Of a stretch of 64,000 nucleotides of DNA, positions 2,966 through 53,001 are shown piece by piece (positions within the stretch are counted from its first letter, which is position 1; the number at the start of each line of letters is the position of its first letter). The notes under the pieces were generated by a model. The model saw only the letters and a list, made by a program, of their open reading frames with translations, was not told where the DNA came from and ran no database searches. The DNA comes from a virus, in IMG/VR virus record IMGVR_UViG_3300012001_000008, positions 8,924-72,923 of that record. One strand, given 5' to 3'. Position numbers and translations under genes: made by a program.

Positions 2966-2978
2966 AATTTACTTCCTT

Positions 2979-4448: not shown

Positions 4449-5141
4449 CTAGAAATGTATGTTTAGTCCACCGCCACCAAGTGCCTTAACGAGTCCTGGA
4501 ATGAGTCCGTTACTACTGCTACCGCTCCCCTTAGTAGTCTTACTATTGGAACTATTATTAGTCGTAGATTGTTGGCTATTGCTCCCCTGCACAGGAGTTG
4601 TCGTTGGGTTAGCATCTAGTTGTGCCTGAATCTGTGCCTGTAATTCCTTATTAGCATTTATAAGCGCTTCAATGTCCTGTGAAACTGTCGCCCCATTAAT
4701 CTTGAAAGAATCAGATGTAGCGGTAACGGTGATAGGCTTTCTCAATGGTATAACAGAGTATATACCGCTAACCTGTAGTTGGTATGTCCCAGCTGGCGTT
4801 GAGTAAGGAATGATGAGTGTGCTTGTTGAGTCTTCACACCCCTCTTTACTCGTAAGTGTGTCGGCGCTGAGGTTGATTGGGGTTAGAGTTTTATCACTGA
4901 TTGATACGAGTCTGCGAGTAATGGTTGTGAGGACACTATCTCCGACATAACGACAACTATGAATCTTATATGTAAGCTCGTGACCAGCATATAGAGCTGT
5001 AGCGTCCTTTATTGCTGGTTTATCGTACTCAGCTGGGACAATTGGCGCGAATAGTGGGAAGGCTACCAGTAGTGTCAGGATTACGAGCATAAGCGCATTA
5101 AGATGCGTTACAGTTAGTAGTTTTTTAAGCTTATCTTTCAT
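4449..5141 (-). CDS. Membrane-anchored protein with beta-rich ectodomain (lysis region)
   Basis: N-terminal TM helix, GGAGG RBS before ATG 5141, Ser/Asn-rich tail. Confidence 0.6.
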   Translation of the reverse strand: MKDKLKKLLTVTHLNALMLVILTLLVAFPLFAPIVPAEYDKPAIKDATALYAGHELTYKIHSCRYVGDSVLTTITRRLVSISDKTLTPINLSADTLTSKEGCEDSTSTLIIPYSTPAGTYQLQVSGIYSVIPLRKPITVTATSDSFKINGATVSQDIEALINANKELQAQIQAQLDANPTTTPVQGSNSQQSTTNNSSNSKTTKGSGSSSNGLIPGLVKALGGGGLNIHF

Positions 5142-29666: not shown

Positions 29667-29687
29667 TATAAACTCCGTTCAATCTCT

Positions 29688-29716
29688 ATTATGCTCTTTT
29701 TTTACGAAAAACACAA
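29688..29716 (-). promoter_or_regulatory. Early-type promoter TTGTGT-N17-CATAAT
   Basis: Exact motif and spacing. Confidence 0.8.
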
Positions 29717-29719
29717 CCC

Positions 29720-31627
29720 CTAGTGCAGGTCTGCATAGACAATATCACCATCTATGCGGGTTATAGTTAGTGACGAACCGCTAGGCATTAACACCTCTGC
29801 TTCGCCCATAGTGCGTCCACGCTTACCGAATGTAACATAGTCAGGGATAATTGCTTTTTGTCCCTTTTTTGCTGAGATAACGAGCATGGAACCACCCTTA
29901 TACTTGAATGTATCAGCTATCTTCTGGTCGGTTGAGGTGCTTAGGAATGAGCGCGAGTGTATAGTCTCTCCGACATCTGTATTCTGGTGTACTGGAATCT
30001 CTGTACCACGATAGATAGTGGTATCGTTGGCGAGAGTGACATTAGCAGCAGTATCAATGTTCTTGATTGTGTCGCCGTAGGTAGTCTTTGTACCGTAGAC
30101 GTTAAGTGGGTCATCAAGCATATTGGCGCGAGCATGAATGTTAATGGCATCGTACATGTGACCTTGGTAGGCGCGTACTGAGTCAGTAACATCACCTGAG
30201 TGCTGTCCTAGAGAGCCATCGAAGTAAGAAGACTCAACATACTTATTGAAGTCATTAACATTGCCTAGTTTAGATAGGTCAACAGGGATACTCTTGCTTC
30301 CACCCTTCTTCTTAGCGAACTTACCAGTAAGGTCGCGTGGGTGCAGGTCTTCTACGAAGGGTACATCGTTAAGCATCTTGCCATCGTAGGTGTTGAAAAA
30401 GCTTCCGTCCTCGCGTTGGATAAGGAGTTCATAACGGCACTGACAGTTAACGTGAATGTGTCCGCTCTGTAGCTTCTCGTAGGTAGGCTTAATCTTGTAT
30501 GTCTTGCCACCGTCCTTAACAGAGAAAGTCTTGCCGAAAGGGATGAAGTCGTTCTTGAAGGGGATAGGATTAAGCGCAGTTGCGTCGATGATAGCCTGAC
30601 AGATAGCCTCTGGGTGTCCTGTGTTACTTACTAGGCGCTTGTATGCCTTGTCGGTAAGTTGGTTCTGGGCGAGGAACTGCTTGTCTGCATCGAACTGACT
30701 CATAGTGAATACACGGTTAGCTTCGTTGCCAGCAATGACAGTGGCGCGACGCTTACCAATACCAGCGAAGTTCTCTTGGAGGTTTTTGATAACAGCCTGT
30801 CGAGTATCACCCTTAAGGATAAGGTCACGAGCGTAGGCATAGATGTTCTCGTCCTTGTGGACAGCGCGTAGGTACTGCTTCTCGTCTAGTGAGGCGAGTG
30901 CTTCGAACTTGTCTTTAAGAGCAGCCTCAATACTTGGGTTACTTAGCTCGCTATCAATAGCGTCATCGAGTGAGTTCTTAAGGTCTTTGGCAATAGTGTG
31001 TACATGGCTCTTAGCGCCACGCTCTGCTTGTAGCTTCATAGCAGCTTGTCCAGATTTAGTCTGGGCGAAGACGGTGTGTAGACCGAACTGCACGAGTAGG
31101 TGTTGTAGGCGTTGCTTGGCGTAGAGAGGAAGCAAGATAGCCCCGATAGTTAGGAGCGCGAACATAAGCGTATGTGTCTGTTGGCTCTCAACGGCGTTCT
31201 CTAGGATAGCCTCAGCCTCAGCATAGTCGCCATTCTGTACGGCTTGTACATATCGAGCAAGGATTTGGTTATCAACACGCTCAACACTCTGCTTGAACTG
31301 CTCTGTTGCTAGGTCTATCTGGCGTTGCTCGTCAGGAGAGATGTTAGCATTAGCAACGAATGCGCGTGGACCCATACCGAAAGACTGTTCTTCAACAACT
31401 GACGCATCTGGCTCGTTAGCAGGCTCTAAGTCGCCTTCGCTACGGAGTTCCTTAAGAAGCGCCTTGGCCTCCTGAGCCATGGTCTTAATCTTCTTTGCAT
31501 TCTCCTCTGGGGTGACGAGTTGTACCTTTGTCGAGGCAGTAAGAGCAGCCTTAAGAGCAGCGAGTGAAGCAGCGCTAGGATTGGCTGGTGTTGGAGCTTG
31601 CTGTGTAGGAGCATTGCTATTCTGCAT
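29720..31627 (-). CDS. MuF/gp7-like head morphogenesis protein with C-terminal ADP-ribosyltransferase (R-S-E class)
   Basis: RRATVIAGNE, HIHVNCQC MuF motifs; HPRDLTGKF linker; ART motifs YDAIN, IYRG, FLSTS, EAEVL. Confidence 0.85.
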   Translation of the reverse strand: MQNSNAPTQQAPTPANPSAASLAALKAALTASTKVQLVTPEENAKKIKTMAQEAKALLKELRSEGDLEPANEPDASVVEEQSFGMGPRAFVANANISPDEQRQIDLATEQFKQSVERVDNQILARYVQAVQNGDYAEAEAILENAVESQQTHTLMFALLTIGAILLPLYAKQRLQHLLVQFGLHTVFAQTKSGQAAMKLQAERGAKSHVHTIAKDLKNSLDDAIDSELSNPSIEAALKDKFEALASLDEKQYLRAVHKDENIYAYARDLILKGDTRQAVIKNLQENFAGIGKRRATVIAGNEANRVFTMSQFDADKQFLAQNQLTDKAYKRLVSNTGHPEAICQAIIDATALNPIPFKNDFIPFGKTFSVKDGGKTYKIKPTYEKLQSGHIHVNCQCRYELLIQREDGSFFNTYDGKMLNDVPFVEDLHPRDLTGKFAKKKGGSKSIPVDLSKLGNVNDFNKYVESSYFDGSLGQHSGDVTDSVRAYQGHMYDAINIHARANMLDDPLNVYGTKTTYGDTIKNIDTAANVTLANDTTIYRGTEIPVHQNTDVGETIHSRSFLSTSTDQKIADTFKYKGGSMLVISAKKGQKAIIPDYVTFGKRGRTMGEAEVLMPSGSSLTITRIDGDIVYADLH

Positions 31628-33102: not shown

Positions 33103-34518
33103 CTAGAAGCCAAGCCTATTCATGTTATGCTTATCGTCCTTAATCTTGCCGTGGAACTTGCTGTGCATACGGACAGCAATACTGAATGAGTCAGCGAAGT
33201 CGGGTGAGCGTCCGAGGACTTCTTTTATCTTGTCCTTCTTGGTGACCTTCTCTACACCATCCACCATATCGGTGTCATGGGCAGATAGTTCTCGCCATAG
33301 CTCATCATCATGTCCTCTATAGGACTCTCTCTGTAGGACTTGGACTTCCCCTTCGTCTAATGCTCTACGCATATTGAGCATCGTTTCATTGCGCGACTTG
33401 CCTGTAGCGGTGTATTCGTCTATGTGCCAACCGAGTATCTTCATACTGTCACGCATAGCAGTACCAACGCCGTTTACCTCTAGGCTTATCTGTCGTGCTT
33501 GTCCCTTAGTGAATCCCTTGCTCTCGGCGAAGGCAATTAACTGCTGGGCGAATAGGTATCCTGTTGGGCGCGAGTCTATCTCGCTATTCTGACCATAGGT
33601 GCGTTCAGGAATCTTGAGTTCCTTCTGCTCTGTGAGAACGCCATACTCAATAAGACTGACTACGGTAGCGTCGCCACCATTATCGCTTACGTCCACGCCG
33701 ATGACCTTGTCTAGCTTATAGCGTGAGTCTTTAGGAATGACGTTGCCCTGCTCGTCTCGCTCTGGCTCTGGTAGCTTGAAGATGCTTGCCTTCTCCCACA
33801 GGTAGCCAGTAATGAGGGCGCGGTCTTCATCGAGATAGTTCCAGTTATTGTAGAGGTAGCGTTGCGCCCACCACTTTGGCTTGCTCTTTATAAGGGAGTT
33901 AATGTCTTGGTCGGTCTGCCAAGAGTCCTCTAGGGTGAACTCTATGACCATAACATTGCTAGGTAGTTCGTTCTTCTTCCACTTGTCGTAGTAACGGCTC
34001 TTTGTCCAACCGTTATTAGGGTTCATTGTGTGGATGTTAATGCTTGGCTGTCCCTGTTGGTTAGCACGACCTTTACGACTCATAATCATGTCTACTGCAT
34101 CTTCGATTAGCTCGTTGCTTTCCTCTAGTTGGTTAGCGGTAATGTCGAGTCCCTTAATCTTGTTCTGGTCGCGGTCGGTAGAGCTATCTGCTTGGGCGAA
34201 GGTGATAATGCTCTTATTGGGGAACTCAATCAAGAGTGAGCCTTCATTAAGGCGATAGTGGTCTTCCTCAATCATGTTCATATCGGCGAGCATCTTCTTG
34301 TATGTACGCCAGATAGTCTTACGCGCAGTGTTGAAGTTCTTGCGCCAGACAAACATCTGCGAGTAGGGGAACTCGTTAGCTATAGAGATGAAGACATGGG
34401 CAGCGAGAGCAGACTTACCCACACCAGTTGGACCAATAAGAATCAACTCGTCAATATCTGGACGGTTGTTAAGGATGTCGATGACCTCTTGTTGCTTAGG
34501 CTTAAGCTGTAGAGCCAT
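33103..34518 (-). CDS. terL: Terminase large subunit
   Basis: Walker A GPTGVGKS, Walker B-like QLEES, TMNP, nuclease GVDV...SPDFADS. Confidence 0.9.
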   Translation of the reverse strand: MALQLKPKQQEVIDILNNRPDIDELILIGPTGVGKSALAAHVFISIANEFPYSQMFVWRKNFNTARKTIWRTYKKMLADMNMIEEDHYRLNEGSLLIEFPNKSIITFAQADSSTDRDQNKIKGLDITANQLEESNELIEDAVDMIMSRKGRANQQGQPSINIHTMNPNNGWTKSRYYDKWKKNELPSNVMVIEFTLEDSWQTDQDINSLIKSKPKWWAQRYLYNNWNYLDEDRALITGYLWEKASIFKLPEPERDEQGNVIPKDSRYKLDKVIGVDVSDNGGDATVVSLIEYGVLTEQKELKIPERTYGQNSEIDSRPTGYLFAQQLIAFAESKGFTKGQARQISLEVNGVGTAMRDSMKILGWHIDEYTATGKSRNETMLNMRRALDEGEVQVLQRESYRGHDDELWRELSAHDTDMVDGVEKVTKKDKIKEVLGRSPDFADSFSIAVRMHSKFHGKIKDDKHNMNRLGF

Positions 34519-34939
34519 CTTCGATTGCCTTTGGTTCGACTATCTCAGCATCAATAAGATTGCGAGGTTTAATCTGTGAGATGACAATTGGCTCCATCTT
34601 GATAGTCTCGCCATTGCTAGTAATATCAATCTTGTCACCGAAGCCTGTCTTGCGTAGCCACTCAGCAGAGAAGTGCGAGCCACCCATAGCTTTAAGTACC
34701 TGAGCGATAGTAACCGCTTGCATAAGGGTCTTAGTGCCAGTAGGCTCTAGCCATAATGGTTTGTTCTTTAAGTTCTCGGTAAGCTTATTGAATAGTTCTT
34801 CGTCGTTAAGAAGTTCCTGTACGACAGAAGACCAGTTCTTGCTTCCTTTCGGGCGACCACCTAGCTTGCCTGCTTCGCTTGGGTCTAATAGGTTGCCTAA
34901 TTGCTTTGCAGCTTTCTCTGGGTCTTGTGATATTGGCAT
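34502..34939 (-). CDS. terS: Terminase small subunit
   Basis: GGRPKGSKN, KIDITSNGE; overlaps terL start. Confidence 0.7.
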   Translation of the reverse strand: MPISQDPEKAAKQLGNLLDPSEAGKLGGRPKGSKNWSSVVQELLNDEELFNKLTENLKNKPLWLEPTGTKTLMQAVTIAQVLKAMGGSHFSAEWLRKTGFGDKIDITSNGETIKMEPIVISQIKPRNLIDAEIVEPKAIEDGSTA

Positions 34940-35162
34940 TTTTGTACGCTCTCTGTGTATATTTAACCGTATTATTCGGCTTTATTTGGGTTATAACCCT
35001 ATTATACAACAAAGAGCTAAATGACGTTGTTGCTACTTAGCTCGGTAAACTTATCTTTCACCCACTGAGGGATACTATTGCCTGGTACTAGTCTACCCAA
35101 ATAGAACCACCTATAAGAATGGTTACGCCAGTTCAGCCGTCGCCATAGCCAATATGTGTCAC

Positions 35163-35396
35163 TCACTCGCTATATCTAGCCCCAGAGATTGGTAGAATCG
35201 GAAGTTGTGTAAAAGTCGTGTCACACATACCACAGGTACACATAGCATACATTCCAGGATTATCGCGCACCCGTCTAAGCATGTTCTTTCTTATCTCAGA
35301 ATGTATGCGTTCGTGTACCTTGTCTTGCTCTATCTCTTTTAGAACCTCTTTTACCTGTTCCTTAGACTCTTTTGTTATCATTCTTCTTATCCTCAT
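35163..35396 (-). CDS. Hypothetical protein
   Basis: ORF in a tightly packed minus-strand run; start uncertain. Confidence 0.45.
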   Translation of the reverse strand: MRIRRMITKESKEQVKEVLKEIEQDKVHERIHSEIRKNMLRRVRDNPGMYAMCTCGMCDTTFTQLPILPISGARYSE

Positions 35397-35682
35397 AGTA
35401 AGTCATGTATTTGTTCCTGTCTGTTACCCATAGTATCTCTCTTTCGAGACTGGTAATGTTTTCTTTTAGGGCGCGAATCATATGTCGGGCGAACTTAATA
35501 GCTTCTTGGGATGGTAACTCTACTAGCCTCTCACCGCGTTGCATAATAGCGAGGGTGTCTTCTGTCTCGGCATCATCACCTACGAGCGATATGGTCTTGT
35601 GGTAAATACGTTCTTTGGGCGACACTGGTGGAATATCCATCGGGGTGAAGAAGTCTGTAGTGCCGTCGTCGAACTTAACCAT
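35362..35682 (-). CDS. Hypothetical protein
   Basis: 106-aa ORF. Confidence 0.55.
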   Translation of the reverse strand: MVKFDDGTTDFFTPMDIPPVSPKERIYHKTISLVGDDAETEDTLAIMQRGERLVELPSQEAIKFARHMIRALKENITSLEREILWVTDRNKYMTYYEDKKNDNKRV

Positions 35683-35683
35683 A

Positions 35684-35992
35684 CTACTTCCCTGTACAGC
35701 TATTGACTACTGGGGTAGTTATTGGTTCGGGCGACGCTGTAGGAACCCATGGCGTTGTATCTACTGGAATATCACAGGTTTCTGTTCCACCCTTCATACA
35801 CTGTGGGTTAGCTGGGTCTGTGTTATCACAGCCATCTACTGGGTTAGATAGTCTATTAGGATATTGGCAGGTGCTATGGTCGAATGTTGTTTCTGTGGGC
35901 GCGACAGTCGCAGCTGTTGCGGGACGAGTAGCGCCATACACCCAACCGCTTAGAGCGACAACAAGTAATAGTACAAGAGTTAGTTTTTTCAT
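35684..35992 (-). CDS. Secreted/membrane Cys- and Thr/Pro-rich protein
   Basis: MKK plus hydrophobic signal; CQYP...GCDNTDP...C; AAGGAGG RBS. Confidence 0.65.
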   Translation of the reverse strand: MKKLTLVLLLVVALSGWVYGATRPATAATVAPTETTFDHSTCQYPNRLSNPVDGCDNTDPANPQCMKGGTETCDIPVDTTPWVPTASPEPITTPVVNSCTGK

Positions 35993-36237
35993 TTCTTAAC
36001 CTCCTTAAATATATATTCATTATACCCCTGTGCGCCAGAACCAACCAGCGGTAGACTATCTATGTACTGCTGGTAGTGTTCCTTACATAGGTCAAGCTTC
36101 TCTCCTGAGAGATATGGAGTTGTGGCGCGACCCTCTGTCTGTTCTGTGGTGAAGCGGACTGATAGCGTCTTCTGCTTATGGTCTGCTTCTTTCGAGCAAC
36201 CCTTTATGTCGCATAGTGTTTGAGTTATAGTACTCAT
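35989..36237 (-). CDS. Small zinc-binding protein
   Basis: CDIKGC...DLCKEH. Confidence 0.6.
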   Translation of the reverse strand: MSTITQTLCDIKGCSKEADHKQKTLSVRFTTEQTEGRATTPYLSGEKLDLCKEHYQQYIDSLPLVGSGAQGYNEYIFKEVKK

Positions 36238-36458
36238 GCGAATAATGCCTCATTGAGTGCTTCTTTGGTTGGGTACTTTTTTAGTAGGTTTTCTACTGTG
36301 GCGAAACGTGTCTTCACTTCTGAATCTAGTCGGAAGTCGTGACTGTTATCTGCTATCTTCCTATCCATTTCTGATTTAGTTTCTGCCGTTATAAAGTTGT
36401 AGTAGCCTGAACCGTGGAAGTCTGGATAGTTCGTTACCATCTTTGCTATATGAATCAT
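36234..36458 (-). CDS. Hypothetical protein
   Basis: MIHIAKM... start in a TAATG overlap; fused to the upstream gene in the ORF track by an indel. Confidence 0.55.
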   Translation of the reverse strand: MIHIAKMVTNYPDFHGSGYYNFITAETKSEMDRKIADNSHDFRLDSEVKTRFATVENLLKKYPTKEALNEALFA

Positions 36459-36794
36459 TATGCGTACACCTGCTTTCCGAATAGTGCGTACTGAATTACT
36501 GCATCGCCATTCAAGACTGTCATAGTCATCAAAGTCGTGCTTATCCATGAGCTTTAATCCCTTAAGGAACTTAGTGAGCGTTAACTGATGCCACTTCGAG
36601 TCCTCGGCATCCCAAATACGGATACGGTAACCATTAGTGAGCGCATCAGATGTCCACATACCATCATCTGCTTTTTTCAAACCGATGATGTCTGCCTCTC
36701 CTGCCCAGTAGCTAATACCGTTTAATGCAGACGACATAATGTCATTGATATTCTCATCAGTGACGACAATCTTCTTTTCGATAATCCTACTCAC
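36458..36794 (-). pseudogene. Conserved-looking phage protein with 1-nt insertion near 36510
   Basis: Removing one A gives ...DYDSLDGDAVIQYALFGKQVYA* ending at TAATG; GISYW motif upstream. Confidence 0.6.
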
Positions 36795-36924
36795 TTAATA
36801 GTCCTTCCGTAGAAATGACTTGCCAAATCTCACCCCAGTTAAATGCAACGATTGCCACAAGGACGATAGCGAGCGCTATACAGATTCCTAATGCGAGAGT
36901 TGTGCCGTTATAGTCTTCGTTCAT
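36787..36924 (-). CDS. 45-aa single-TM protein
   Basis: Manual translation MNEDYNGTTLALGICIALAIVLVAIVAFNW...; AAGAAAGGCT RBS. Confidence 0.6.
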   Translation of the reverse strand: MNEDYNGTTLALGICIALAIVLVAIVAFNWGEIWQVISTEGLLSE

Positions 36925-36959
36925 TTGTTTAAAGCCTTTCTTACTGTCTTTATATTTTA

Positions 36960-36988
36960 ATTATGCTCTTATTCGGCGAAAAACACAA
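36960..36988 (-). promoter_or_regulatory. Early-type promoter TTGTGT-N17-CATAAT
   Basis: Exact motif and spacing. Confidence 0.8.
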
Positions 36989-36999
36989 GCCCTTTTATC

Positions 37000-37029
37000 A
37001 AAGAAAATAGACGCCATTATAGCGCCTAT
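37000..37029 (-). terminator. Intrinsic terminator of the large ncRNA
   Basis: Minus strand ATAGGCGCT-loop-GGCGTCTAT followed by TTTCTTT. Confidence 0.7.
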
Positions 37030-37560
37030 CTTTCACATCCCCTTTGAACTCAATCCCACATTAAGCGCACAATTCTGGTAAGTAGCTCGTTTGTCGTGCA
37101 GGGGCTACTTTAGGATTGAGGTGGCGACCCTTCGCTGTTTCGCGTATCGTGACTCATTTGATACTTACCAGAACTATGTGTTTAATTATTAAATGCACAC
37201 ACGGGGGGACGTTTTCACCAATGACCGTTTTAGATGGACAGTCCACGGTTTCAGAAGGACTTATACAACGGAGCTACCGTCTTGTAACCTCATATCCGCC
37301 GTGTGGCGTAAGTAGCTACCTCCCCCTCTGTGTGCATTTATTCAATAAGTGACAATCCAGCAAGCACGTCCGTAGACACATGTATCCTACGGCGTACTCG
37401 TGTGTACATCACAGGGGGTATTCTTCGCGTTGCAGGGTTAGTGGTTCCGCTCCCCCATCTGGGCTATGACTATTTTCCGATTGCCGTCCCTCACTCTTGC
37501 AAGAGCTTCTCGGTTCGACCTGCTTACCAGATTATCACTTATTTGTCTGTTAATGTTCTA
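37003..37560 (-). ncRNA. Large structured non-coding RNA of unknown family (~555 nt)
   Basis: Own promoter and terminator, no minus-strand ORF of 60 aa or more, three long-range helices (37061-84/37162-85, 37190-209/37321-40, 37344-66/37521-43). Confidence 0.75.
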
Positions 37561-37566
37561 TAGTTA

Positions 37567-37595
37567 ATTATGCTCTTTTATGTGCGAAAACACAA
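37567..37595 (-). promoter_or_regulatory. Early-type promoter driving the large ncRNA
   Basis: TTGTGT-N17-CATAAT. Confidence 0.8.
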
Positions 37596-37599
37596 GCGT

Positions 37600-37842
37600 T
37601 TAATCACGCAATTTTTCAGCAATTTTTGTGTCCACGAAGTAGCCACCCTTTGGGTCAGGAGTGACACCACGAGCATACTCTCGCTCACCACCTGTCATGC
37701 TACAGAACGGACACTTATGCTGGTAATAAAGGACATACTCATTATTACCATCTGCCATTAGCGCCCTCGGTAGTCGTGTCTCTGGACCAAGAACTCTACA
37801 GTTATGGTAGTAAACTGGTGTTGCTTCTGATGTCTGGGTCAT
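37600..37842 (-). CDS. Small Cys/His-containing hypothetical protein
   Basis: 80 aa, HNC...HKCPFC; TAATG coupling. Confidence 0.55.
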   Translation of the reverse strand: MTQTSEATPVYYHNCRVLGPETRLPRALMADGNNEYVLYYQHKCPFCSMTGGEREYARGVTPDPKGGYFVDTKIAEKLRD

Positions 37843-38099
37843 TATATCTCCTCCATTGTGTCTACATCTATTTCGTGCATTTCTATTTGGCGCGGCATAT
37901 TCCAGTCGGCGAATGCCGTATCAACAAGATAGTGCTTATCTGTGTTGGGCTGTCCCTCATTAAAGGCATAGAGTGGACCTTCTTTTTTGAAGTAATAACC
38001 CTCTCGTACACGACGCTTACCCGTGAATCGGTCGGGTGTTGGGTCTATGTCTAACGCCTTATAGCGCTTAGGCTCATATCCGAGTATTTTAGGGGGCAT
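37842..38099 (-). CDS. Hypothetical protein
   Basis: 85 aa, ADWNMPR, AAGAAAGGCT RBS. Confidence 0.6.
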   Translation of the reverse strand: MPPKILGYEPKRYKALDIDPTPDRFTGKRRVREGYYFKKEGPLYAFNEGQPNTDKHYLVDTAFADWNMPRQIEMHEIDVDTMEEI

Positions 38100-39294: not shown

Positions 39295-39776
39295 ATCGTG
39301 TCTCCTAGTAAGGCGTGTATGTTTGGGACTAATTGTCTAACTACTTCTGTACCTTTAATTATTGTGTTTGTGTTTCGGCGACGCTCTCTGAATTGCTCAG
39401 GTGTCATAATCTTATGACCCTTAGCTCCATTACAGGGGTCGCACATCGTTTGCTTATTATCGAGACTCTCAATCTCATCTTGTGTCCAGCCCAGTAGCCT
39501 CGCTTCGTACTTTGGAACGGTGTGGTCTACCGTCATAAGCACAAAGTCATCGGTATAAAGGTCAATATGAACGCGCCCATGGGACTTCTGGTGGCGAGTG
39601 TACTTACGGCTACCATCTTCCCTACCAAGCGCTAGAAGCGTCCCTACGCGCCCACAGGCTACACATTCTCTACCCTTCTTGGCAAATACCTGTAGGCGCT
39701 CGTGTTCAGCGAACTCAGTGTATAAGTCCTCAAGCGGTAGGAACTCGATTAGCTCCTTACCGTGTGGAAGACGCAT
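39291..39776 (-). CDS. HNH endonuclease-like protein
   Basis: CVAC, MTVDHTVP, QTMCDPCNGAKG. Confidence 0.75.
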   Translation of the reverse strand: MRLPHGKELIEFLPLEDLYTEFAEHERLQVFAKKGRECVACGRVGTLLALGREDGSRKYTRHQKSHGRVHIDLYTDDFVLMTVDHTVPKYEARLLGWTQDEIESLDNKQTMCDPCNGAKGHKIMTPEQFRERRRNTNTIIKGTEVVRQLVPNIHALLGDTI

Positions 39777-40275
39777 TACGTCGTTCCTTTGCTATTTTCA
39801 CAATCCGTTCGAACGCCTCCACATTGCCCATTGCATCGTTTACTGGGTTATGGTCATGTTTGGTCTGGCGAAAACGCTTCCAACTCTGTGTCTCACCAAA
39901 GTTATTGTTCAGCCCTGCCCAAAAGTCAGAGATACGGCGACCAGAGTGACCGAATGGATTATCCATCTCGGCAACATCAAACATACCAGCAATCCACATC
40001 CAGTCGTAGGCTACATTATCACTTACGAATACTGGACGGTCGTTACCGCATACCTCTTTAAGCCACACAGCAAACTCTTTAGCTACCTTATCATCTGTAC
40101 TTAATCGCTTACCAATAACTGGCACAGCTGGGTTATCTGGGTCTGGCGTACCTTCAAACAGGATGCCATGGAATACTTTTAATGACGTACCATGCACAGC
40201 GCCAAACTCGGTCATCGTTCCCCTTACTGGACTTGTTCCTAGTGCCTCAACATCTACGAATATATAATTAGACAT
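39757..40275 (-). CDS. DEDDh 3'-5' exo(ribo)nuclease
   Basis: VDVEA, DNVAYDW, HNPVNDA. Confidence 0.8.
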   Translation of the reverse strand: MSNYIFVDVEALGTSPVRGTMTEFGAVHGTSLKVFHGILFEGTPDPDNPAVPVIGKRLSTDDKVAKEFAVWLKEVCGNDRPVFVSDNVAYDWMWIAGMFDVAEMDNPFGHSGRRISDFWAGLNNNFGETQSWKRFRQTKHDHNPVNDAMGNVEAFERIVKIAKERRNASSTR

Positions 40276-41989: not shown

Positions 41990-42012
41990 ATTCCTCCTTA
42001 TTTATAAACTCA

Positions 42013-42041
42013 ATTATGCGCCTTTTTTGTGAAAAACACAA
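42013..42041 (-). promoter_or_regulatory. Early-type promoter
   Basis: TTGTGT-N17-CATAAT. Confidence 0.8.
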
Positions 42042-42044
42042 GCT

Positions 42045-42893: not shown

Positions 42894-42926
42894 TTTTCTA
42901 ACCTTTCTTATTTGCTTTCTGACCGA

Positions 42927-42955
42927 ATTATGCTCTTTTTTTGTCTAAAACACAA
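42927..42955 (-). promoter_or_regulatory. Early-type promoter
   Basis: TTGTGT-N17-CATAAT. Confidence 0.8.
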
Positions 42956-42960
42956 GCGAT

Positions 42961-44851: not shown

Positions 44852-44858
44852 ATTTTGA

Positions 44859-44887
44859 ATTATGCTCTATTTTTTATAAAAACACAA
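44859..44887 (-). promoter_or_regulatory. Early-type promoter
   Basis: TTGTGT-N17-CATAAT. Confidence 0.8.
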
Positions 44888-44987
44888 GCACTAGCTTTTT
44901 GCACCACCGTGGAAGGCTGCGTAGAGCAAGATTCCAGCAATTATAAGTAGGAATAAAATCGTCATAATACTGCCTTGCAGTTCTTCG

Positions 44988-45194: not shown

Positions 45195-45244
45195 AATCTC
45201 CTACTCTCAGTATAGCGATAATACCCCAAAAACGCAAGCATAAT

Positions 45245-45272
45245 AAAAGACCACCCGCTAAGATGGTCTTTT
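45245..45272 (-). terminator. Intrinsic terminator (possibly bidirectional)
   Basis: AAAAGACCA-loop-TGGTCTTTT inverted repeat. Confidence 0.7.
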
Positions 45273-45553
45273 GCTTTCGGCAAAACAATTGTCATGCCTC
45301 TGAGCGCGGTTGTGGGTTGGGCTTCGTCCTTCAACGATTTTCCAACATTCGGACGCCTCGACTAGTCTAGAAGTAAATCTTTTGTAGTTTTGGTAATGCG
45401 TCCGTTCAACTCCATAGGAATCTTGTCACTCTGTCAAGAGGTTTTCGATTCATTGCCACCGAGTCCTTGGTTACTCCTCGATGTACGCTACACTTTCGTG
45501 CCTATTAGGTGCTTTAGCCGTCGAGATACTTATTAAGCTACCACAACGCTCAT
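45246..45553 (-). ncRNA. Structured non-coding RNA of unknown family (~305 nt)
   Basis: Promoter TTGAAT-N17-TATTAT upstream, terminator downstream, no ORF; end helix 45301-15/45541-52, internal helices, cacGAAAgtg tetraloop. Confidence 0.65.
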
Positions 45554-45617
45554 ATATACATAATAGCATAACCTGTTTTATTATTCAAGCATTTTATGTA
45601 GTGGAATAGTCTACAAG

Positions 45618-45713: not shown

Positions 45714-45719
45714 TTTCTA

Positions 45720-45748
45720 ATTATGCTCTTTTATTTGCTAAAACACAA
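45720..45748 (-). promoter_or_regulatory. Early-type promoter driving the sRNA
   Basis: TTGTGT-N17-CATAAT. Confidence 0.8.
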
Positions 45749-46259
45749 CCCCATTGTGCCTTTTAATTACCTCCTCTATATCTGCTTGACTGACCTTATT
45801 GCCAGAGTGAGCGAGTTGTTTAAGATTATCTATTGCTTCATCGCCATATTGGGCGCGTAGCTTAATCTCGTAGACCTTTAGATTTCCACCCTTTACGACA
45901 TTACATTCGTTGCACTGTGGGTGACAGTTTATATCATTCCAGCGTGTGTTCAGGAATCGGCGGTTTATGAAGTGACCATTCTGTAGCTCTTCGAACTTAC
46001 GGTTGCAGGTATAACAATACTCGCTTAAGCCTCTAATATAGGCAGAATGGTACTTATCGGCGTATCCTATGAGCTGACTACGTTCAGAATTGCCCTTGTA
46101 ACGTAACGTAAGCCTCTGTGGGGCGTTTTGGGACGAAAGTGGGGGAATTGTGCGTTTTCGGTTATAAGTCTCTTGGAAGGGCTTAATTTCGCGCTTTTCA
46201 CATTTATTCTTTGAATGCCAAATCGACCCGCACCATTTACACGGCTTGTGGGTCAACAT
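45738..46259 (-). CDS. ninG: NinG/Rap-like recombination endonuclease
   Basis: CYTC, QNGHFINR, TRW..NCHPQCNECN..GGN, L...YG. Confidence 0.75.
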   Translation of the reverse strand: MLTHKPCKWCGSIWHSKNKCEKREIKPFQETYNRKRTIPPLSSQNAPQRLTLRYKGNSERSQLIGYADKYHSAYIRGLSEYCYTCNRKFEELQNGHFINRRFLNTRWNDINCHPQCNECNVVKGGNLKVYEIKLRAQYGDEAIDNLKQLAHSGNKVSQADIEEVIKRHNGVVF

Positions 46260-46995: not shown

Positions 46996-47028
46996 TGTGT
47001 AAGCCTTTCTTAATGAATTACAACTTGA

Positions 47029-47057
47029 ATTATGCTCTCAATTATGGCAAAACACAA
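47029..47057 (-). promoter_or_regulatory. Early-type promoter
   Basis: TTGTGT-N17-CATAAT. Confidence 0.8.
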
Positions 47058-47082
47058 CCCCCTTTTCGTATAATAAGGATAT

Positions 47083-47472
47083 ATGTATTACAAACAAGGT
47101 GGAGTCTGGAAAAAAGACACCAAGAAAAACCTACAAATTGTCTCGCCTTCAACTTTGAAGCGTAAGCGTGACGCCTTTGAGCGCAAGAAGCTTACGCAAG
47201 CTTTCAAACGCTGGCGAAGTTACCAGTACAGGACTCAAGGGGGTCTCTGTTACTATTGTCTTCATCCGATTGATGGGGCTTGGCATACAGACCACTTTAT
47301 ACCACTGGGCAGGTTCTATGGCACTTCTGCCTACAAGAACCTGAGAGTCTGCTGCTCCCACTGTAACTACTACAAGTCCGTTCAATACCCCACCGCTCGC
47401 ATACTTGCCGAGCTTAGGAGCGGTGTGGCTTGTCGTCATATTCACAAAGTCTCTAGAACCTCTGTCTTGTAA
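47083..47472 (+). CDS. HNH endonuclease (opposite strand)
   Basis: QGGLCYYC, TDHFIPL, NLRVCCSHCNYYK; TATAAT just upstream. Confidence 0.8.
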   Translation: MYYKQGGVWKKDTKKNLQIVSPSTLKRKRDAFERKKLTQAFKRWRSYQYRTQGGLCYYCLHPIDGAWHTDHFIPLGRFYGTSAYKNLRVCCSHCNYYKSVQYPTARILAELRSGVACRHIHKVSRTSVL

Positions 47473-48203
47473 CCGTGGTTATTTAGCCGTAGCTCCCACG
47501 TTCCTTTACCCTTGCTCTGATATACCTTACAGTAATCTGGGTAGTCTTCGGCGAGAATCTTCGCAGCTCTCTCAATAATCTTAGGTGTGCGCTTCTCTTG
47601 CATACCGCCTGGTTGCTTGTAATAAGCGGTGTTAACAGTGATGTAGTCAAATCTAACCAGTCCACCTTCTTCGGCAAATACTTGGAATCCGCGACGGTAG
47701 TCATCTTTTTCATCTGTGAGGACATGGTGAGCCTCTGAACCTGTGTTAATTAGACCCCAGCAAGAACCAACCTGTAGGAATAGACCGCGTGTAATACGGG
47801 GCTTCATAAAGAAGGCGTTACGCGCTGCATAGATACCCCATGTACTTGTGCCGAGTTGGTGGCATAGTTCAAAGCCCTTTTTAGCAAAGTCGAGATTGCT
47901 CTCTACAAGCTTCTTGCCATCCTTAGATAGCTTCTCAAATGACTTAATATCATCATCTACGAATAGAATCTCTGTTCCCTTTGGGTAATAATCTAATATG
48001 CGCGAGACATTCTTGCTCTTGGTGGGGACGGAGTCTACAATCTTGACCATGCCACCAGTCTGACGGACATAGTCATCGTGTTCCTCTGGGTCGCTTAGGA
48101 AAACCGTGACATCAGCCAAATTAGCCCCACTACGAATAAGTGAGGCTATGGTTAGTTCAAAAATCTTATCGGCGCGACGGTAGCTAGGAATTGCTATTTG
48201 CAT
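47442..48203 (-). CDS. TET-associated (GREB1-like) glycosyltransferase
   Basis: IAIPSYRR, FVDDDI, EKDDY, QPGG; adjacent to the dioxygenase. Confidence 0.75.
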   Translation of the reverse strand: MQIAIPSYRRADKIFELTIASLIRSGANLADVTVFLSDPEEHDDYVRQTGGMVKIVDSVPTKSKNVSRILDYYPKGTEILFVDDDIKSFEKLSKDGKKLVESNLDFAKKGFELCHQLGTSTWGIYAARNAFFMKPRITRGLFLQVGSCWGLINTGSEAHHVLTDEKDDYRRGFQVFAEEGGLVRFDYITVNTAYYKQPGGMQEKRTPKIIERAAKILAEDYPDYCKVYQSKGKGTWELRLNNHGYKTEVLETL

Positions 48204-49041
48204 CTTTTTCCTCCTGAATCATACGGAGTAACTTTTCGAGTTTGCGGTCTTCTGCCTTCTTTGCATTGGCGACTTCAAGGGAGGTCTCAAGACAGTTCCA
48301 CATTTGAACGAGTGAATAGAACACAATAGTGAAGCGATAAGATGCCTCAGTTGTACCCTTCATTGGAGTTACGCCATGAACGAATCGCTGTCCGTCAAAC
48401 ATAGAGAGTGAACCGTTGCTAATCTTTAGGTTAACTTTTAGTTCAGGGATGTGGAGGTAGCCTCCCTTGATGTCCTTTTTGAGGCCAAGCATGATGGAGA
48501 ATACGTCCTTAAAGTTACCAGTGTCCATGTGATACTTGAGTGGATTATTCTTGTTGATGATGCCACTAGTAAAGTGAGTCTCTGGCATGAGATATTCACC
48601 ACGAACATTCGTAGCGAGTTCGGCGTGGTTTTTGTAACGCTTGTCGGCGTACTGGCTATATAATTCCTCGGCTGACTTAGCAACAGCAAACAGGTCGTCT
48701 TCTATAGACTTGTATTTGTTGCCGAAAGCAGTCTTCGAACAGGTCTTTTTACCAGCAAGACCAACCATGCGTGGACGGTAGCCGATAATCTCCGACTGAG
48801 TTACAAGTCCGTTTGTTCGCTTGTTAACAGAGAACTTGACCTTACTTAGGGCATTAATCATGCGGTCGGTGTCGAGGAGTTCGTCGGTGTCTTTGTAGAT
48901 AAGTAGCGTTTCGCCAGTGTTCTTGTCTACAATGATGGTGTCCTCCGAGATGATTGGGTCATCATTCTCGAAGGCTTTTTGGCTTAGAAGCTCTTTAGTG
49001 TTATTTGGGGCTTCTGATAAATCAACGTATAGCGTCTTCAT
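48184..49041 (-). CDS. TET/JBP-family 2-oxoglutarate/Fe(II) dioxygenase
   Basis: FTSGIINKN, HMD (HxD), GGYL, HGVT, RFTIVFY. Confidence 0.8.
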   Translation of the reverse strand: MKTLYVDLSEAPNNTKELLSQKAFENDDPIISEDTIIVDKNTGETLLIYKDTDELLDTDRMINALSKVKFSVNKRTNGLVTQSEIIGYRPRMVGLAGKKTCSKTAFGNKYKSIEDDLFAVAKSAEELYSQYADKRYKNHAELATNVRGEYLMPETHFTSGIINKNNPLKYHMDTGNFKDVFSIMLGLKKDIKGGYLHIPELKVNLKISNGSLSMFDGQRFVHGVTPMKGTTEASYRFTIVFYSLVQMWNCLETSLEVANAKKAEDRKLEKLLRMIQEEKDANSNS

Positions 49042-51936: not shown

Positions 51937-53001
51937 TTATTTATTCCTACCTACTATTATATCGGTTCGGTCATTAGAGAACTTTAGCCGTGCGCAGATG
52001 CCAATGTTAATCTCGCGCGAGATAGCTCTCTGCTGTTCATAGCTAATATAACCATACTCGCTAAACTTACGAGATGCTGGCATAGATACCTTTTCTAGCC
52101 ACTTCTTCCAACGAGCATCTACATCGTCTTCCTCGAAGAAGATTGGATTAGCATGAGAAGCTTCCATATCGAATCCATAGTGACTCTTTTCGTACTCGTT
52201 ACCAACTGGCTTGTACTGGTTTAACATGAACGAAAGCTCTGGTAGCATAAAACGAAGTACACCAAAATCTTCCATCAACTGAATACCAGTACTGGAATAC
52301 TCACCCATAAGTAGCTTATCTATCTCTTGTACCCAGCGCTCTCTTGATACGTCTAAAATACGAGCTGCAAGCTGTCTTGCCTTACCAGTAAAGTTTGGGT
52401 CAACAGTGAAGCCGTAACGCGCTGCAAATCGAGCTGCACGAAGCATACGGAGAGGGTCTTCCTGAATCCTATCCTTTGGAAGTCCAACTGTAACAATCTT
52501 CTTTCCATGAATATGTAGCTTACCACCGTATGGGTCATAGATAGTTCCGTCTGGGCGAAGCACCATAGCGTTCATCGTGAAGTCACGGCGAGCAAGGTCT
52601 GAATCAATATCTGTCACAAAAGTAACATCAGGTTGACGGCTCTTGCTCGTATAAACCTCGGTGCGGAAAGTAGTTACCTCTACATATTCATAAACGGTGT
52701 GAAACTCCTTGTACCTTTCTACGTCACCCCATACCTTCTTCATTTCTTCGTTTGTTGGAACCTCAACTGGAACCTTGAAACCGATAGTGCCATGCTTCTT
52801 GCCATTACCAACAAAGTAAGCGTGGCGTCCAGCGTCATGCACGAGCTTCTCCATTTCTTCAACAAGTAACGGGGTGGTGAAGTCGTAGTCCTTCGGAGTA
52901 TTGCCCATAACGATGTCTCGCACTGCGCCACCAACAAGATATACCTCGTCTGTACCGAGAATCCTTATTACTTCTTGCTGAATTGCTAGTGCCTTTTCCA
53001 T
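51937..53001 (-). CDS. cca: CCA-adding tRNA nucleotidyltransferase family protein
   Basis: YLVGGAVRD, DYDF, EVTTFR, DLARRDFTMNA, EDPLRMLRAARF, SRER. Confidence 0.85.
   Translation of the reverse strand: MEKALAIQQEVIRILGTDEVYLVGGAVRDIVMGNTPKDYDFTTPLLVEEMEKLVHDAGRHAYFVGNGKKHGTIGFKVPVEVPTNEEMKKVWGDVERYKEFHTVYEYVEVTTFRTEVYTSKSRQPDVTFVTDIDSDLARRDFTMNAMVLRPDGTIYDPYGGKLHIHGKKIVTVGLPKDRIQEDPLRMLRAARFAARYGFTVDPNFTGKARQLAARILDVSRERWVQEIDKLLMGEYSSTGIQLMEDFGVLRFMLPELSFMLNQYKPVGNEYEKSHYGFDMEASHANPIFFEEDDVDARWKKWLEKVSMPASRKFSEYGYISYEQQRAISREINIGICARLKFSNDRTDIIVGRNK

What the first reader, a model, noticed from the sequence alone, without database searches (positions are those of the whole stretch)
37003..37595. 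Stand-alone ~555-nt multi-domain structured RNA with its own promoter and terminator
Seen: the largest gene-free stretch in a densely coded genome is bracketed by an early promoter (37567-95) and a terminator (37000-29). Three long helices close three domains: 37344-66/37521-43 (23 bp; its four plus-strand C-A mismatches all become G-U on the minus strand), 37190-209/37321-40 and 37061-84/37162-85. An 8-bp complement (37049-56 with 37113-20) crosses the last helix and would be a pseudoknot. No RNase P, tmRNA or intron core motifs were recognised. Known: phages carry large ornate ncRNAs of unknown function such as ROOL and GOLLD. Inference: a divergent member or a new class.
Basis: partly seen in the sequence, partly recalled or inferred. 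Interest (0 to 1): 0.85.

Follow-up and report, generated by a model that had tools for sequence, protein, structure and literature searches.

The report
Phage noncoding RNA of hairpin modules
An uncultured soil phage has a gene-free stretch, set between a promoter and a terminator, that would make an RNA of three long hairpins; two related phages share the layout, no catalogued RNA family matches it, and its job is unknown.

Summary
Window 36925-37599 is the largest stretch free of minus-strand ORFs. It starts with one copy of a 34-nt phage promoter motif (9 copies in the window) and ends in a hairpin plus U-run. Its three 25-31-nt inverted repeats are three of only four such repeats in 64 kb. 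Rfam gives no match.

Two related uncultured phages carry the same layout with 2 and at least 3-4 hairpin modules. In one of them the unit lies between two opposite-strand genes, so it is a stand-alone transcription unit.

The "ornate multi-domain" reading is weakened:
- The module interiors fold no better than shuffles (z +0.8 to -1.0).
- They are not conserved between the phages.
- The pseudoknot is at chance level.
- G-U asymmetry is weak overall (12 G-U against 6 A-C).

What is conserved is a leader motif (GAACATTAACA / GTTCATTAACA) directly 5' of the closing helix, plus related helix arms. The motif resembles rrn boxA at 8-10 of 11 positions.

My best reading (about 0.35) is an rRNA-operon-like noncoding unit: a boxA-like leader, RNase III-type leader-trailer helices, and fast-changing loop RNAs released from them. 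Function is untested, there are no RNA data, and the host is unknown. It looks like a new RNA class with three known members.

The parts
37564..37597 (-). Promoter motif copy P1. The -35-like TTGTGT is at 37590-37595 and the -10 CATAAT at 37567-37572, with a 17-nt spacer. The start of the RNA is inferred near 37560.
   Evidence: One of 9 copies in the window, with 0 expected by chance. The same motif stands in front of the related loci in G001 and L103. The generic sigma-70 scanner does not call it.
37548..37558 (-). Conserved leader motif GAACATTAACA (boxA-like), 4 nt 5' of the first closing helix.
   Evidence: The same or a near-same motif stands directly 5' of closing helices in L009 (twice) and L103. 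It matches the published BoxA consensus GYTCTTTAANA (PMC5725501, passages) at 8 of 11 positions, and at 10 of 11 in L103. The E. coli rrnH leader was read.
37344..37543 (-). Module 1: closing helix arms 37517-37543 and 37344-37370 (22 Watson-Crick, 4 G-U, 1 other) around a 146-nt interior.
   Evidence: pair probability 0.93. Interior z is +0.26. A 66-nt interior hairpin (37398-37463) recurs at 64 of 66 letters in a contig of another study, in a different context.
37182..37348 (-). Module 2: closing helix with core 37321-37340 / 37190-37209 (extended arms 37318-37348 / 37182-37212) around a 105-nt interior.
   Evidence: pair probability 0.89. Interior z is -0.61.
37060..37186 (-). Module 3: closing helix arms 37162-37186 and 37060-37084 (21 Watson-Crick, 2 G-U, 2 A-C) around a 77-nt interior.
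   Evidence: pair probability 0.71. Interior z is +0.83. Its 5' arm aligns with the 5' arm of L009 module 2 at 76% over 29 nt, E 0.006.
37049..37120 (-). Candidate pseudoknot: 37113-37120 with 37049-37056 (8 Watson-Crick pairs), crossing the module 3 helix.
   Evidence: Present but not above chance: shuffles give a mean of 1.68 such stems. No conservation could be tested.
37000..37029 (-). Intrinsic-terminator-like hairpin (37007-37029) with a U-run (37000-37007); an A-run upstream can lengthen the stem.
   Evidence: Fold; pair probability 0.98. The simple scanner does not call it.
36957..36990 (-). Second perfect copy of the promoter motif (P2), which restarts transcription for the downstream genes (45-aa ORF 36787-36924, 186-aa ORF 36234-36794).

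Best explanation
The locus is a stand-alone noncoding RNA gene of an uncultured, tRNA-rich soil phage. It is laid out like a miniature rRNA operon.

Shown:
- A phage promoter, about 560 nt without a gene, and a terminator hairpin.
- Three tandem modules, each a 23-31-bp helix closing a 77-146-nt loop.
- A conserved leader motif directly 5' of the first helix.
- The same layout in two related phages, with other module numbers and unrelated loop sequences.

Inferred:
1. The leader motif works like boxA. It recruits host NusB/NusE to RNA polymerase, so that an untranslated transcript escapes Rho, and the 5' strand of the helix is held until its partner strand emerges.
2. The long helices work like rRNA leader-trailer helices. 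Host RNase III cuts them and sets the loop RNAs free as separate small RNAs.
3. The fast-changing loop RNAs are the working parts and act on host or phage targets that are still unknown.
For: Transcription unit:
- The promoter motif has 9 copies in the window against 0 expected.
- This is the largest stretch free of minus-strand ORFs.
- The terminator hairpin has pair probability 0.98.
- In L103 the unit (726 nt, z -4.90 with 20 shuffles) lies between ORFs 1-1377 and 2256-4943, both on the opposite strand. Its promoter therefore serves nothing but this RNA.

Helices:
- They are 3 of the 4 long inverted repeats in the 64-kb window.
- In G001 they are the two best of 11 such repeats (85% and 87% complementary), and in L103 both of 2.
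- Pair probabilities are 0.71-0.93.
- Lengths of 23-31 bp exceed the more than 17 bp needed for the E. coli 16S leader-trailer helix (PMC10250234, introduction).
- The flanks of E. coli 16S and 23S form comparable long duplexes in my own calculation.

Leader motif:
- It is present 0-4 nt 5' of 4 closing helices in 3 phages.
- It matches the BoxA consensus at 8, 8, 8 and 10 of 11 positions. C4 and T6 are kept in all four; a C4T/T6C double mutant abolished SuhB recruitment to the suhB boxA in PMC5725501 (passages).
- The other promoter copies lack it.
- In rrn operons boxA lies just after the promoter and again before 23S, and it is necessary and sufficient to recruit the antitermination factors (PMC10250234). 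It also precedes CRISPR operons (PMC13753749, passages).
- The identical motif TAGTTCATTAACA also ends 3-4 nt before a tmRNA gene in 3 of 3 tested contigs of another phage group. There too it leads an untranslated RNA.

Modular make-up: the arms of different modules are related to each other, while the loops are not.
Against: - No RNA data exist; no listed run is RNA.
- No covariation test was possible with 3 loci and loops that cannot be aligned.
- No copy of the motif matches the gamma-proteobacterial BoxA consensus perfectly. Two perfect matches to that consensus occur elsewhere in G001, on the strand opposite to its RNA locus. The match score alone is therefore worth little, and the argument rests on position and conservation.
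- The motif is not clearly unpaired in equilibrium folds: mean unpaired probability 0.43-0.66, against 0.39-0.40 for the whole transcripts.
- The tmRNA genes of G001 and G002 have another promoter and no such motif.
- The host is unknown, so its own boxA could not be compared.
- Mismatches in 11 helices are 12 G-U against 6 A-C on the sense strand. This is only weak support for selection at the RNA level.
- The loops are not detectably structured, and no target was found for them in the phage genomes.
- RNase III cleavage and Nus binding are pure inference.
Confidence: 0.35

Rival explanations
1. It is one large RNA that works as a whole, folded and possibly multimeric, in the manner of ROOL or GOLLD. 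The long helices would be architectural parts, not processing sites.
For: - Its size (about 560 nt) and phage origin fit, and it is the most stable fold in the window.
- The helices abut with 1-4-nt linkers, which would allow stacking.
- A 66-nt interior hairpin recurs almost unchanged in another study's contig.
Against: - There is no Rfam match, even at E up to 10.
- The interiors fold no better than shuffles and are not conserved between the three phages.
- The module number varies (3, 2, at least 3-4).
- There are no tRNA genes in the window; the 11 tRNAs of G000 lie in its first 8.9 kb.
Confidence: 0.13
2. It is a cis-acting leader of the downstream operon. On this reading it is an antitermination (nut- or put-like) site or an RNase III processing site that sets the fate of neighbouring mRNAs, as the RNase III sites of T7 early RNA do, and not an RNA with a job of its own.
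For: - In G001 the second module ends about 15 nt before the ribosome-binding site of the next gene, with no terminator between them.
- The boxA-like motif fits a nut-type site.
- The locus sits at the border between the small early-type genes and the packaging and head genes.
Against: - In the window a terminator hairpin and a fresh promoter copy separate the RNA from the next gene.
- In L103 there is no downstream gene on the same strand at all.
Confidence: 0.12
3. The inverted repeats act at the DNA level: as a replication origin, as recombination or inversion sites (inverton- or shufflon-like), or as protein-binding palindromes. The RNA fold would then be a by-product.
For: - The arms are the only statistically outstanding and conserved features, and the arms of different modules resemble one another.
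- The G-U to A-C ratio is only 12 to 6.
- The plus strand also folds well (z -3.90).
- The sign of the GC skew changes near 36 kb.
Against: - No serine or tyrosine recombinase was found in G000 or in the complete G001.
- The unit is framed by a promoter and a terminator on one strand in the window. The promoter and the leader motif keep the same orientation to the modules in all three phages.
Confidence: 0.1
4. The modules are small selfish inverted-repeat elements (MITE-like) that have piled up in a tolerant intergenic site. When transcribed, their hairpins would be cut, as is recalled for Correia elements of Neisseria.
For: - Module sizes are 125-200 nt with 25-31-nt terminal inverted repeats that are A/T-rich at their outer ends.
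- The arms are related between modules while the insides are not.
- The copy number varies between phages.
Against: - There are no further copies anywhere in G000 or G001, nor among the other promoter-bearing loci.
- In all three phages the modules follow the same promoter and leader motif, although the surrounding genes differ. The unit is therefore inherited or moved as a whole.
- I saw no target-site duplications; this was by eye only.
Confidence: 0.08
5. The helices themselves are the product: perfect 25-bp double-stranded RNA made early in infection as a decoy or sponge for a host double-strand-RNA-binding enzyme or defence.
For: The helices are the conserved part and the loops are free to drift. 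The promoter type is shared with the small early-type genes upstream.
Against: There is no direct evidence. The idea does not explain the conserved single-stranded leader motif or the large loops.
Confidence: 0.07

Closest known systems
Bacterial rRNA operon leader: boxA antitermination plus RNase III leader-trailer helices
   Same: - The order of parts is the same: promoter, short boxA-like motif, then the 5' strand of a long-range helix of more than 17 bp that encloses an untranslated RNA.
- The arrangement is repeated for successive RNAs in one transcript and ends at a terminator (PMC10250234 abstract and introduction).
   Different: - The enclosed RNAs are 77-146 nt, not conserved and not detectably structured.
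- The motif differs from the published consensus at 1-3 of 11 positions.
- No boxB or boxC was looked for.
- Neither Nus binding nor RNase III cutting is shown.
ROOL and GOLLD large ornate RNAs of phages and bacteria
   Same: Both are several hundred nucleotides long, phage-borne noncoding RNAs of unknown function (PMC12286853, seen as search listing and abstract start only).
   Different: - There is no match to any Rfam model.
- There is no conserved core.
- The interiors fold no better than shuffles.
- It is not next to tRNA genes.
- The build is modular, with a variable module number.
Lambda nut and HK022 put sites; boxA in front of CRISPR arrays
   Same: A short boxA-type leader just after a promoter, in front of a long untranslated transcript (PMC13753749 passages; PMC10250234 introduction).
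   Different: Nut sites pair boxA with a small boxB hairpin and serve downstream genes. Here the motif abuts 23-31-bp long-range helices, and in L103 no downstream gene exists. The modules are inverted repeats around variable loops, unlike the direct repeats and spacers of a CRISPR array.
RNase III processing hairpins of phage T7 early RNA (recalled, no call)
   Same: Phage early transcripts carrying roughly 20-bp hairpins that are cut by host RNase III.
   Different: The T7 sites are compact hairpins between genes. Here each helix closes a 77-146-nt loop, and the unit carries no gene.
Retron msr-msd RNA and bacterial Y RNAs
   Same: The ends of a 100-250-nt noncoding RNA pair into a long closing stem.
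   Different: No reverse transcriptase and no Ro60/TROVE protein is found in G000 or in the complete G001. There is no Rfam match.

Membership tests
Any Rfam 15 family (taken to include ROOL, GOLLD, RNase P, tmRNA, introns, 6S and Y RNA) | Score at or above the family's gathering threshold | tested here: not met
   There are 0 matches in the whole window. At E up to 10 in 36800-37800 the only match is CRISPR-DR65 at 18.2 bits, against a threshold of 43. The related loci L009 and L053 also have no match at the RNA locus.
boxA (Nus-factor antitermination site) | Match to the consensus GYTCTTTAANA (gamma-proteobacteria, PMC5725501) | tested here: not met
   The matches are 8 of 11 (window), 8 of 11 and 8 of 11 (L009, two copies) and 10 of 11 (L103). 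C4 and T6 are kept in all four. The host, and so its own consensus, is unknown.
boxA (Nus-factor antitermination site) | Position just downstream of a promoter and upstream of a long untranslated RNA and its leader-trailer helix | tested here: met
   The motif starts within a few nucleotides of the inferred transcript start in the window, in L103 and in L009 module 1. It lies 0-4 nt 5' of a closing helix in 4 of 4 cases.
boxA (Nus-factor antitermination site) | Binding of NusB-NusE, and resistance to Rho that depends on the motif | not testable with these tools
   This needs gel shifts and in vivo read-through assays.
RNase III leader-trailer (processing) helix | A long, nearly perfect helix of more than 17 bp formed by the flanks of the released RNA | tested here: met
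   The helices have 25-31-nt arms at 81-84% complementarity in the window, and 22-27-nt arms at 82-87% in L009 and L103. Pair probabilities are 0.71-0.93.
RNase III leader-trailer (processing) helix | Cleavage by RNase III | not testable with these tools
   There are no RNA data. No phage RNase III gene was found in G000 or G001, so a host enzyme would be needed.
Retron noncoding RNA | A reverse transcriptase gene nearby | tested here: not met
   PF00078 has 0 matches in G000 (56% complete) and in G001 (complete).
Bacterial Y RNA (Ro60-bound) | A Ro60/TROVE protein gene and a tRNA-like domain | tested here: not met
   PF05731 has 0 matches in G000 and G001. ARAGORN and Rfam find no tRNA-like element in the region.
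Inverton or shufflon | A site-specific recombinase, and both orientations present in a population | tested here: not met
   PF00239 and PF00589 have 0 matches in G000 and G001. No joints were seen in 4 runs, but those runs are contigs only, which cannot show rare forms.
MITE-like repeat element | Many dispersed copies sharing terminal inverted repeats | tested here: not met
   No copies lie outside the locus in G000 or in G001. The host genome is unknown and was not tested.

The most novel reading that the evidence does not exclude
A new class of phage noncoding RNA operon that borrows the host's rRNA-making machinery. A boxA-like leader draws the Nus antitermination complex onto an untranslated phage transcript. 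rRNA-style leader-trailer helices then hand the transcript to RNase III, which releases a set of fast-evolving small RNAs whose number and sequence differ from phage to phage. Such RNAs could be host-directed regulators or decoys in an arms race. The same leader motif in front of a phage tmRNA gene in another phage group would make it a general phage signal for 'untranslated RNA ahead'.
Probability: 0.22. Interest if true: 0.75.

Novelty: new variant of a known kind. Interest (0 to 1): 0.55.

Why it matters
Phage noncoding RNAs are poorly known, and the few large ones described (ROOL, GOLLD) have no known function. This locus is a clean, self-contained case with three parts that can each be tested by ordinary experiments: its own promoter, a conserved leader motif, and hairpin modules whose arms are kept while the loops change.

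If the boxA and RNase III reading is right, it would show a phage using the host's rRNA transcription and processing route to make its own small RNAs. It would also give a sequence signature (promoter, leader motif, long-range helix) for finding more such genes in viromes.

If the reading is wrong, the locus still marks a fast-evolving noncoding hotspot in a lineage of tRNA-rich soil phages with modified DNA and no cultured relative.

Tried and rejected
SEARCHES FOR MORE MEMBERS
- Cultured phage records: no match with the DNA, the portal protein or the upstream 80-aa protein.
- Flanking proteins in IMG/VR: the 186-aa downstream protein has no relative. The 80-aa upstream protein has one, L009 in G001.
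- DNA patterns in IMG/VR (8 of 8 scans used):
  - 7 stretches, of which only G001 is related.
  - 67 stretches. True promoter copies lie in 6 contigs; the rest share an unrelated conserved sequence.
  - only L053.
  - 10 and 15 stretches. All except G001 and L053 lie in long open frames of at least 111 codons.
  - 0 stretches.
- Metagenomes (1 of 1 scan used): 35 stretches. One is related (L103, apparently the same 23,043-nt contig as L053). Six belong to a tmRNA-bearing phage group. I did not examine the other 28 beyond their local sequence.
- Bacterial genomes (2 of 2 scans used): one search gave 0 stretches. One search gave 6 stretches, all one conserved sequence in Bacteroidota assemblies and not promoters. 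The host therefore stays unknown.
- Other promoter-bearing relatives (G002-G005) have no leader motif followed by a helix.
- blastn of the RNAs against all promoter loci: nothing.

EXPRESSION AND VARIANTS
- No RNA holder is listed.
- The runs that hold the stretch are soil metagenome contigs of one study, with no differing letters. They gave no natural variants for a covariation test.
- The one foreign piece (run X5, 66 nt) comes from a single contig at depth 2.7.

OTHER IDEAS TESTED
- Antisense targets in the phage's own genome: only chance-level 12-17-nt matches. The 17-nt match in the tRNA region of G000 led to no further module.
- rRNA mimicry: a 14-nt identity to E. coli 16S (E 0.011 in a 6-kb database, four queries) is too weak to build on.
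- Strand call from G-U pairs: 12 against 6, which is not decisive.
- Leader accessibility in equilibrium folds: mixed.
- Literature: searches turned up no description of a phage noncoding RNA with a boxA leader and leader-trailer helices. This covers only the open-access library searched. Supplementary tables, such as the BoxA lists of PMC5725501, were not seen.
- One search found nothing useful.

I repeated it with fewer windows.
Full report
WHERE THE WINDOW COMES FROM

The window is bases 8924-72923 of a 72.9-kb IMG/VR virus record, G000, estimated 56% complete. It has no relative among cultured phage records, whether by DNA, by the portal protein or by the neighbouring 80-aa protein. Almost all long ORFs lie on the minus strand.

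The gene content shows a tailed phage with a large investment in RNA and in DNA modification:
- a portal protein, and a 635-aa neighbour with an ADP-ribosyltransferase domain;
- a TET/JBP oxygenase next to a glycosyltransferase, a CCA-adding/poly(A) polymerase-family enzyme, an Rv2179c-like exoribonuclease, NinG and an HNH endonuclease;
- 11 tRNA genes in the 8.9 kb of G000 outside the window.

The runs that hold the stretch are soil metagenomes.

CHECKING THE OBSERVATION

The stretch 36925-37599 is the largest one free of minus-strand ORFs of at least 40 aa: 675 nt, against 215 nt for the next.

Its upstream end carries a 34-nt motif (GCTTGTGTTTT, 9 variable bases, AAGAGCATAATTAA). The motif occurs 9 times in the window with up to 3 mismatches, against 0 in 100 shuffles. 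Eight copies are on the gene strand, and the one plus-strand copy sits in front of plus-strand ORFs. A second perfect copy at 36957-36990 follows the RNA region. The motif contains TTGTGT, a 17-nt spacer and CATAAT. A generic sigma-70 scanner does not call it, and it does not call the terminator either. The promoter reading therefore rests on repetition, orientation and the -10 element.

The downstream end folds into a hairpin (37007-37029) followed by UUUUCUUU, with pair probability 0.98.

The three long helices are real:
- They are three of only four inverted repeats of at least 20 nt within 300 nt in the 64-kb window.
- Their pair probabilities are 0.93, 0.89 and 0.71.
- The minus-strand fold (-188.9 kcal/mol, z -5.59) is better than the plus-strand fold (-171.1, z -3.90).
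- It is the most stable of 111 non-overlapping 570-nt windows (mean -146.4, sd 14.6).

Rfam has nothing at gathering score in the window. In the region itself the only match is a chance-level one.

WHAT DOES NOT HOLD UP

Module 3's helix, however, has 2 G-U and 2 A-C, and module 2's has one A-C. Over 11 helices in three phages the tally is 203 Watson-Crick, 12 G-U, 6 A-C and 19 other. That gives only a weak lean to the sense strand.

The 8-bp pseudoknot complement is no more than chance gives: shuffles average 1.68 perfect 8-bp stems, and 79% of them have at least one.

Most important, once the closing helices are removed, the interiors fold no better than shuffles:
- z +0.26, -0.61 and +0.83 for the three window modules;
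- -0.49 and -1.04 for L009 module 2 and L103 module 1;
- -0.27 for L009 module 1.

The striking stability therefore belongs to the long helices, not to ornate domains.

RELATIVES

The upstream 80-aa protein has one relative in IMG/VR (69% identity), in G001. G001 is a complete 99-kb phage with direct terminal repeats, 26 tRNA genes and a tmRNA. Directly after that gene come the same promoter motif and a 430-nt stretch with two modules, closed by 23- and 27-nt arms (z -5.70). That stretch runs straight into the next gene.

A scan for the promoter motif found true copies in six IMG/VR contigs. One of them (L053, also fetched as L103) has the promoter followed by about 730 nt with at least three or four helix-closed modules (z -4.90 with 20 shuffles). 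There the unit lies between ORF 1-1377 and ORF 2256-4943, both on the other strand. The promoter can serve only this RNA, and this is the best evidence for a stand-alone RNA gene.

In G001 the two locus helices are the two best of 11 long inverted repeats in 99 kb. In L103 they are both of 2.

No further member turned up in eight IMG/VR scans, one metagenome scan and two genome scans.

WHAT IS CONSERVED

The three RNAs share no detectable similarity in their interiors. They share two things.

1. An 11-13-nt leader motif: TAGAACATTAACA in the window and in L009 module 2, TAGTTCATTAACA in L103, and GAACTTTGACA before L009 module 1. It lies 0-4 nt 5' of a closing helix in all four cases. A loose form of the motif has 16 matches in G000 plus G001 on both strands, and three of them are these leaders. 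The other promoter copies are not followed by it.

2. The 5' arms are related to one another. For example, window module 3 aligns with L009 module 2 at 76% over 29 nt, E 0.006, a value reached by none of 30 shuffles. When six modules are aligned on the leader, 19 of 26 helix columns show changes on both sides that keep pairing. Because each helix was chosen as paired, this count shows that a helix is kept at a fixed place while its sequence drifts. It is not an independent covariation test.

The locus therefore looks like a tandem array of one module type: kept arms, free loops, and 3, 2 or at least 3-4 copies.

HOW IT MOST LIKELY WORKS

The order of parts is promoter, short conserved leader, then the 5' strand of a long-range helix around an untranslated RNA, repeated along the transcript, then a terminator. 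This is the order found in bacterial rRNA operons. There boxA lies just after promoter P2 and again before 23S, and it is necessary and sufficient to recruit the Nus antitermination factors. The flanks of each rRNA form leader-trailer helices that RNase III cuts, and more than 17 bp are needed for 16S (PMC10250234, abstract and introduction). BoxA also precedes suhB and CRISPR operons (PMC13753749, passages).

The E. coli rrnH leader reads TGCTCTTTAACAATTT. The published gamma-proteobacterial consensus is GYTCTTTAANA, and a C4T/T6C double mutant of the suhB boxA lost SuhB recruitment (PMC5725501, passages). The phage motifs match at 10 of 11 positions (L103) and at 8 of 11 (the other three), and all keep C4 and T6.

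An unplanned observation points the same way. The metagenome scan, which asked only for a -10-like element plus the motif, also hit a different phage group. In that group the motif ends 3-4 nt before a tmRNA gene, another untranslated RNA, in 3 of 3 contigs tested with Rfam. ARAGORN did not call these tmRNAs.

I therefore read the motif as a boxA-like signal that protects an untranslated phage transcript from Rho. I read the helices as RNase III-type processing stems that release the loops as small RNAs.

The weaknesses of this reading are real:
- No copy fits the consensus perfectly.
- Two perfect consensus matches occur elsewhere in G001, on the strand opposite to its RNA locus, so the score alone proves nothing.
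- The motif is only partly unpaired in equilibrium folds.
- The tmRNA genes of G001 and G002 use another promoter without the motif.
- The host and its boxA are unknown.
- Nothing is known about what the loops do, and they have no significant complementarity to the phage genomes.
- An RNase E-type single-strand site is an alternative reading of the motif. That consensus is recalled and was not tested.

I put the whole mechanism at about 0.35. That this is a real noncoding transcription unit of a new family I put at about 0.85.

RIVALS

- A single ornate RNA like ROOL or GOLLD. It is disfavoured by the lack of any Rfam match, by the unremarkable and unconserved interiors, and by the variable module number. 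One 66-nt interior hairpin (37398-37463) does recur, at 64 of 66 letters and in a different context, in a contig from another study. Some interior pieces may therefore be functional units.
- A cis-acting leader for downstream genes. This fits G001, but not the window (terminator plus a new promoter) or L103 (no downstream gene).
- DNA-level roles such as an origin, inversion sites or a shufflon. These fit the fact that only the arms stand out. However, neither a serine nor a tyrosine recombinase is found in G000 or in the complete G001, and the promoter, the leader motif and their orientation are kept.
- MITE-like elements. These are unlikely, because there are no copies elsewhere in either phage genome.
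- Retron RNA and Y RNA. Both fail their partner-gene tests.
- No phage RNase III gene is found, so processing would need the host enzyme.

NOVELTY AND VERDICT

The thing is real and is not in Rfam. The literature searches I ran showed no description of a phage noncoding RNA with this layout. Those searches cover only the open-access library, and supplements were not seen.

It is best called a new variant of a known kind, namely phage-borne noncoding RNA genes. Its distinctive, testable feature is the rRNA-operon-like leader and helix arrangement. With three members, no RNA data and no host, the function remains an inference. I score interest at 0.55.

Noticed in passing
window 45195-45580 (minus strand); L055:5455-5830 in G001: A second noncoding RNA candidate of about 330 nt, with its own promoter-like element and terminator hairpin. 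It is 85% identical between the window and G001, which is far better conserved than the finding itself. Compensating changes are visible by eye. Rfam has no match at E up to 10 beyond chance-level hits. Fold z is -2.65 (window) and -4.04 (G001). A small hairpin-terminated transcript precedes it in both phages.
   Followed up: partly
window 1471-1504 (+), 29685-29718, 36957-36990, 37564-37597, 42010-42043, 42924-42957, 44856-44889, 45717-45750, 47026-47059 (all -): Nine copies of a 34-nt promoter-like motif (GCTTGTGTTTT, 9 variable bases, AAGAGCATAATTAA). About 20 copies occur in G001, and more in four further IMG/VR contigs. This is a lineage-specific promoter class, useful for finding relatives.
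   Followed up: partly
L122:3813-4255, L097:208-647, L117:10336-10773 (also L099, L121, L125): In another group of metagenome phage contigs, the same leader motif TAGTTCATTAACA, behind a -10-like GCATAATT, ends 3-4 nt before a tmRNA gene (Rfam 88-90 bits). ARAGORN misses these tmRNAs.
   Followed up: partly
window 37398-37463: A 66-nt hairpin inside module 1 recurs with 2 differences in a 249-nt contig of a run from another study (X5). There its flanks are different and would lengthen the stem. This rests on a single low-depth contig. Pattern scans for it in IMG/VR and in bacterial genomes found nothing.
   Followed up: partly
window 37421-37434 (minus strand): A 14-nt identity (TGCAACGCGAAGAA) to E. 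coli 16S rRNA positions 965-978. E is 0.011 in a 6-kb database with four queries, so it is probably chance.
   Followed up: no
window 47442-49041, 51937-53001, 39757-40275, 29720-31627: A TET/JBP oxygenase next to a TET-associated glycosyltransferase-like protein (the latter below the Pfam cut-off), which hints at modified DNA bases. Also a CCA-adding/poly(A) polymerase-family enzyme, an Rv2179c-like 3'-5' exoribonuclease, and an ADP-ribosyltransferase domain at the C-terminus of the 635-aa protein next to the portal.
   Followed up: no
G000:C1:4213-6065 (outside the window); G001:C1:2884-15957 and L031:2094-2446: There are 11 tRNA genes in the part of G000 outside the window. G001 has 26 tRNA genes plus a tmRNA with its own sigma-70-like promoter. 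The finding is not adjacent to any of them.
   Followed up: no
window about 34000-38000: The GC skew of the plus strand changes sign near 36 kb (cumulative maximum 1.10 at 34001-36000), although the genes stay on the minus strand on both sides. The RNA locus sits at this border, between the small early-type genes and the packaging and head genes.
   Followed up: no
window 37516-37531 with 37074-37089: The 5' arm of module 1 is also complementary to the 3' arm of module 3 (14 of 16 positions), because both helices share UCUGGUAAG/CUUACCAGA. This alternative pairing would enclose the whole RNA, but it has probability 0.0 in the equilibrium ensemble.
   Followed up: partly
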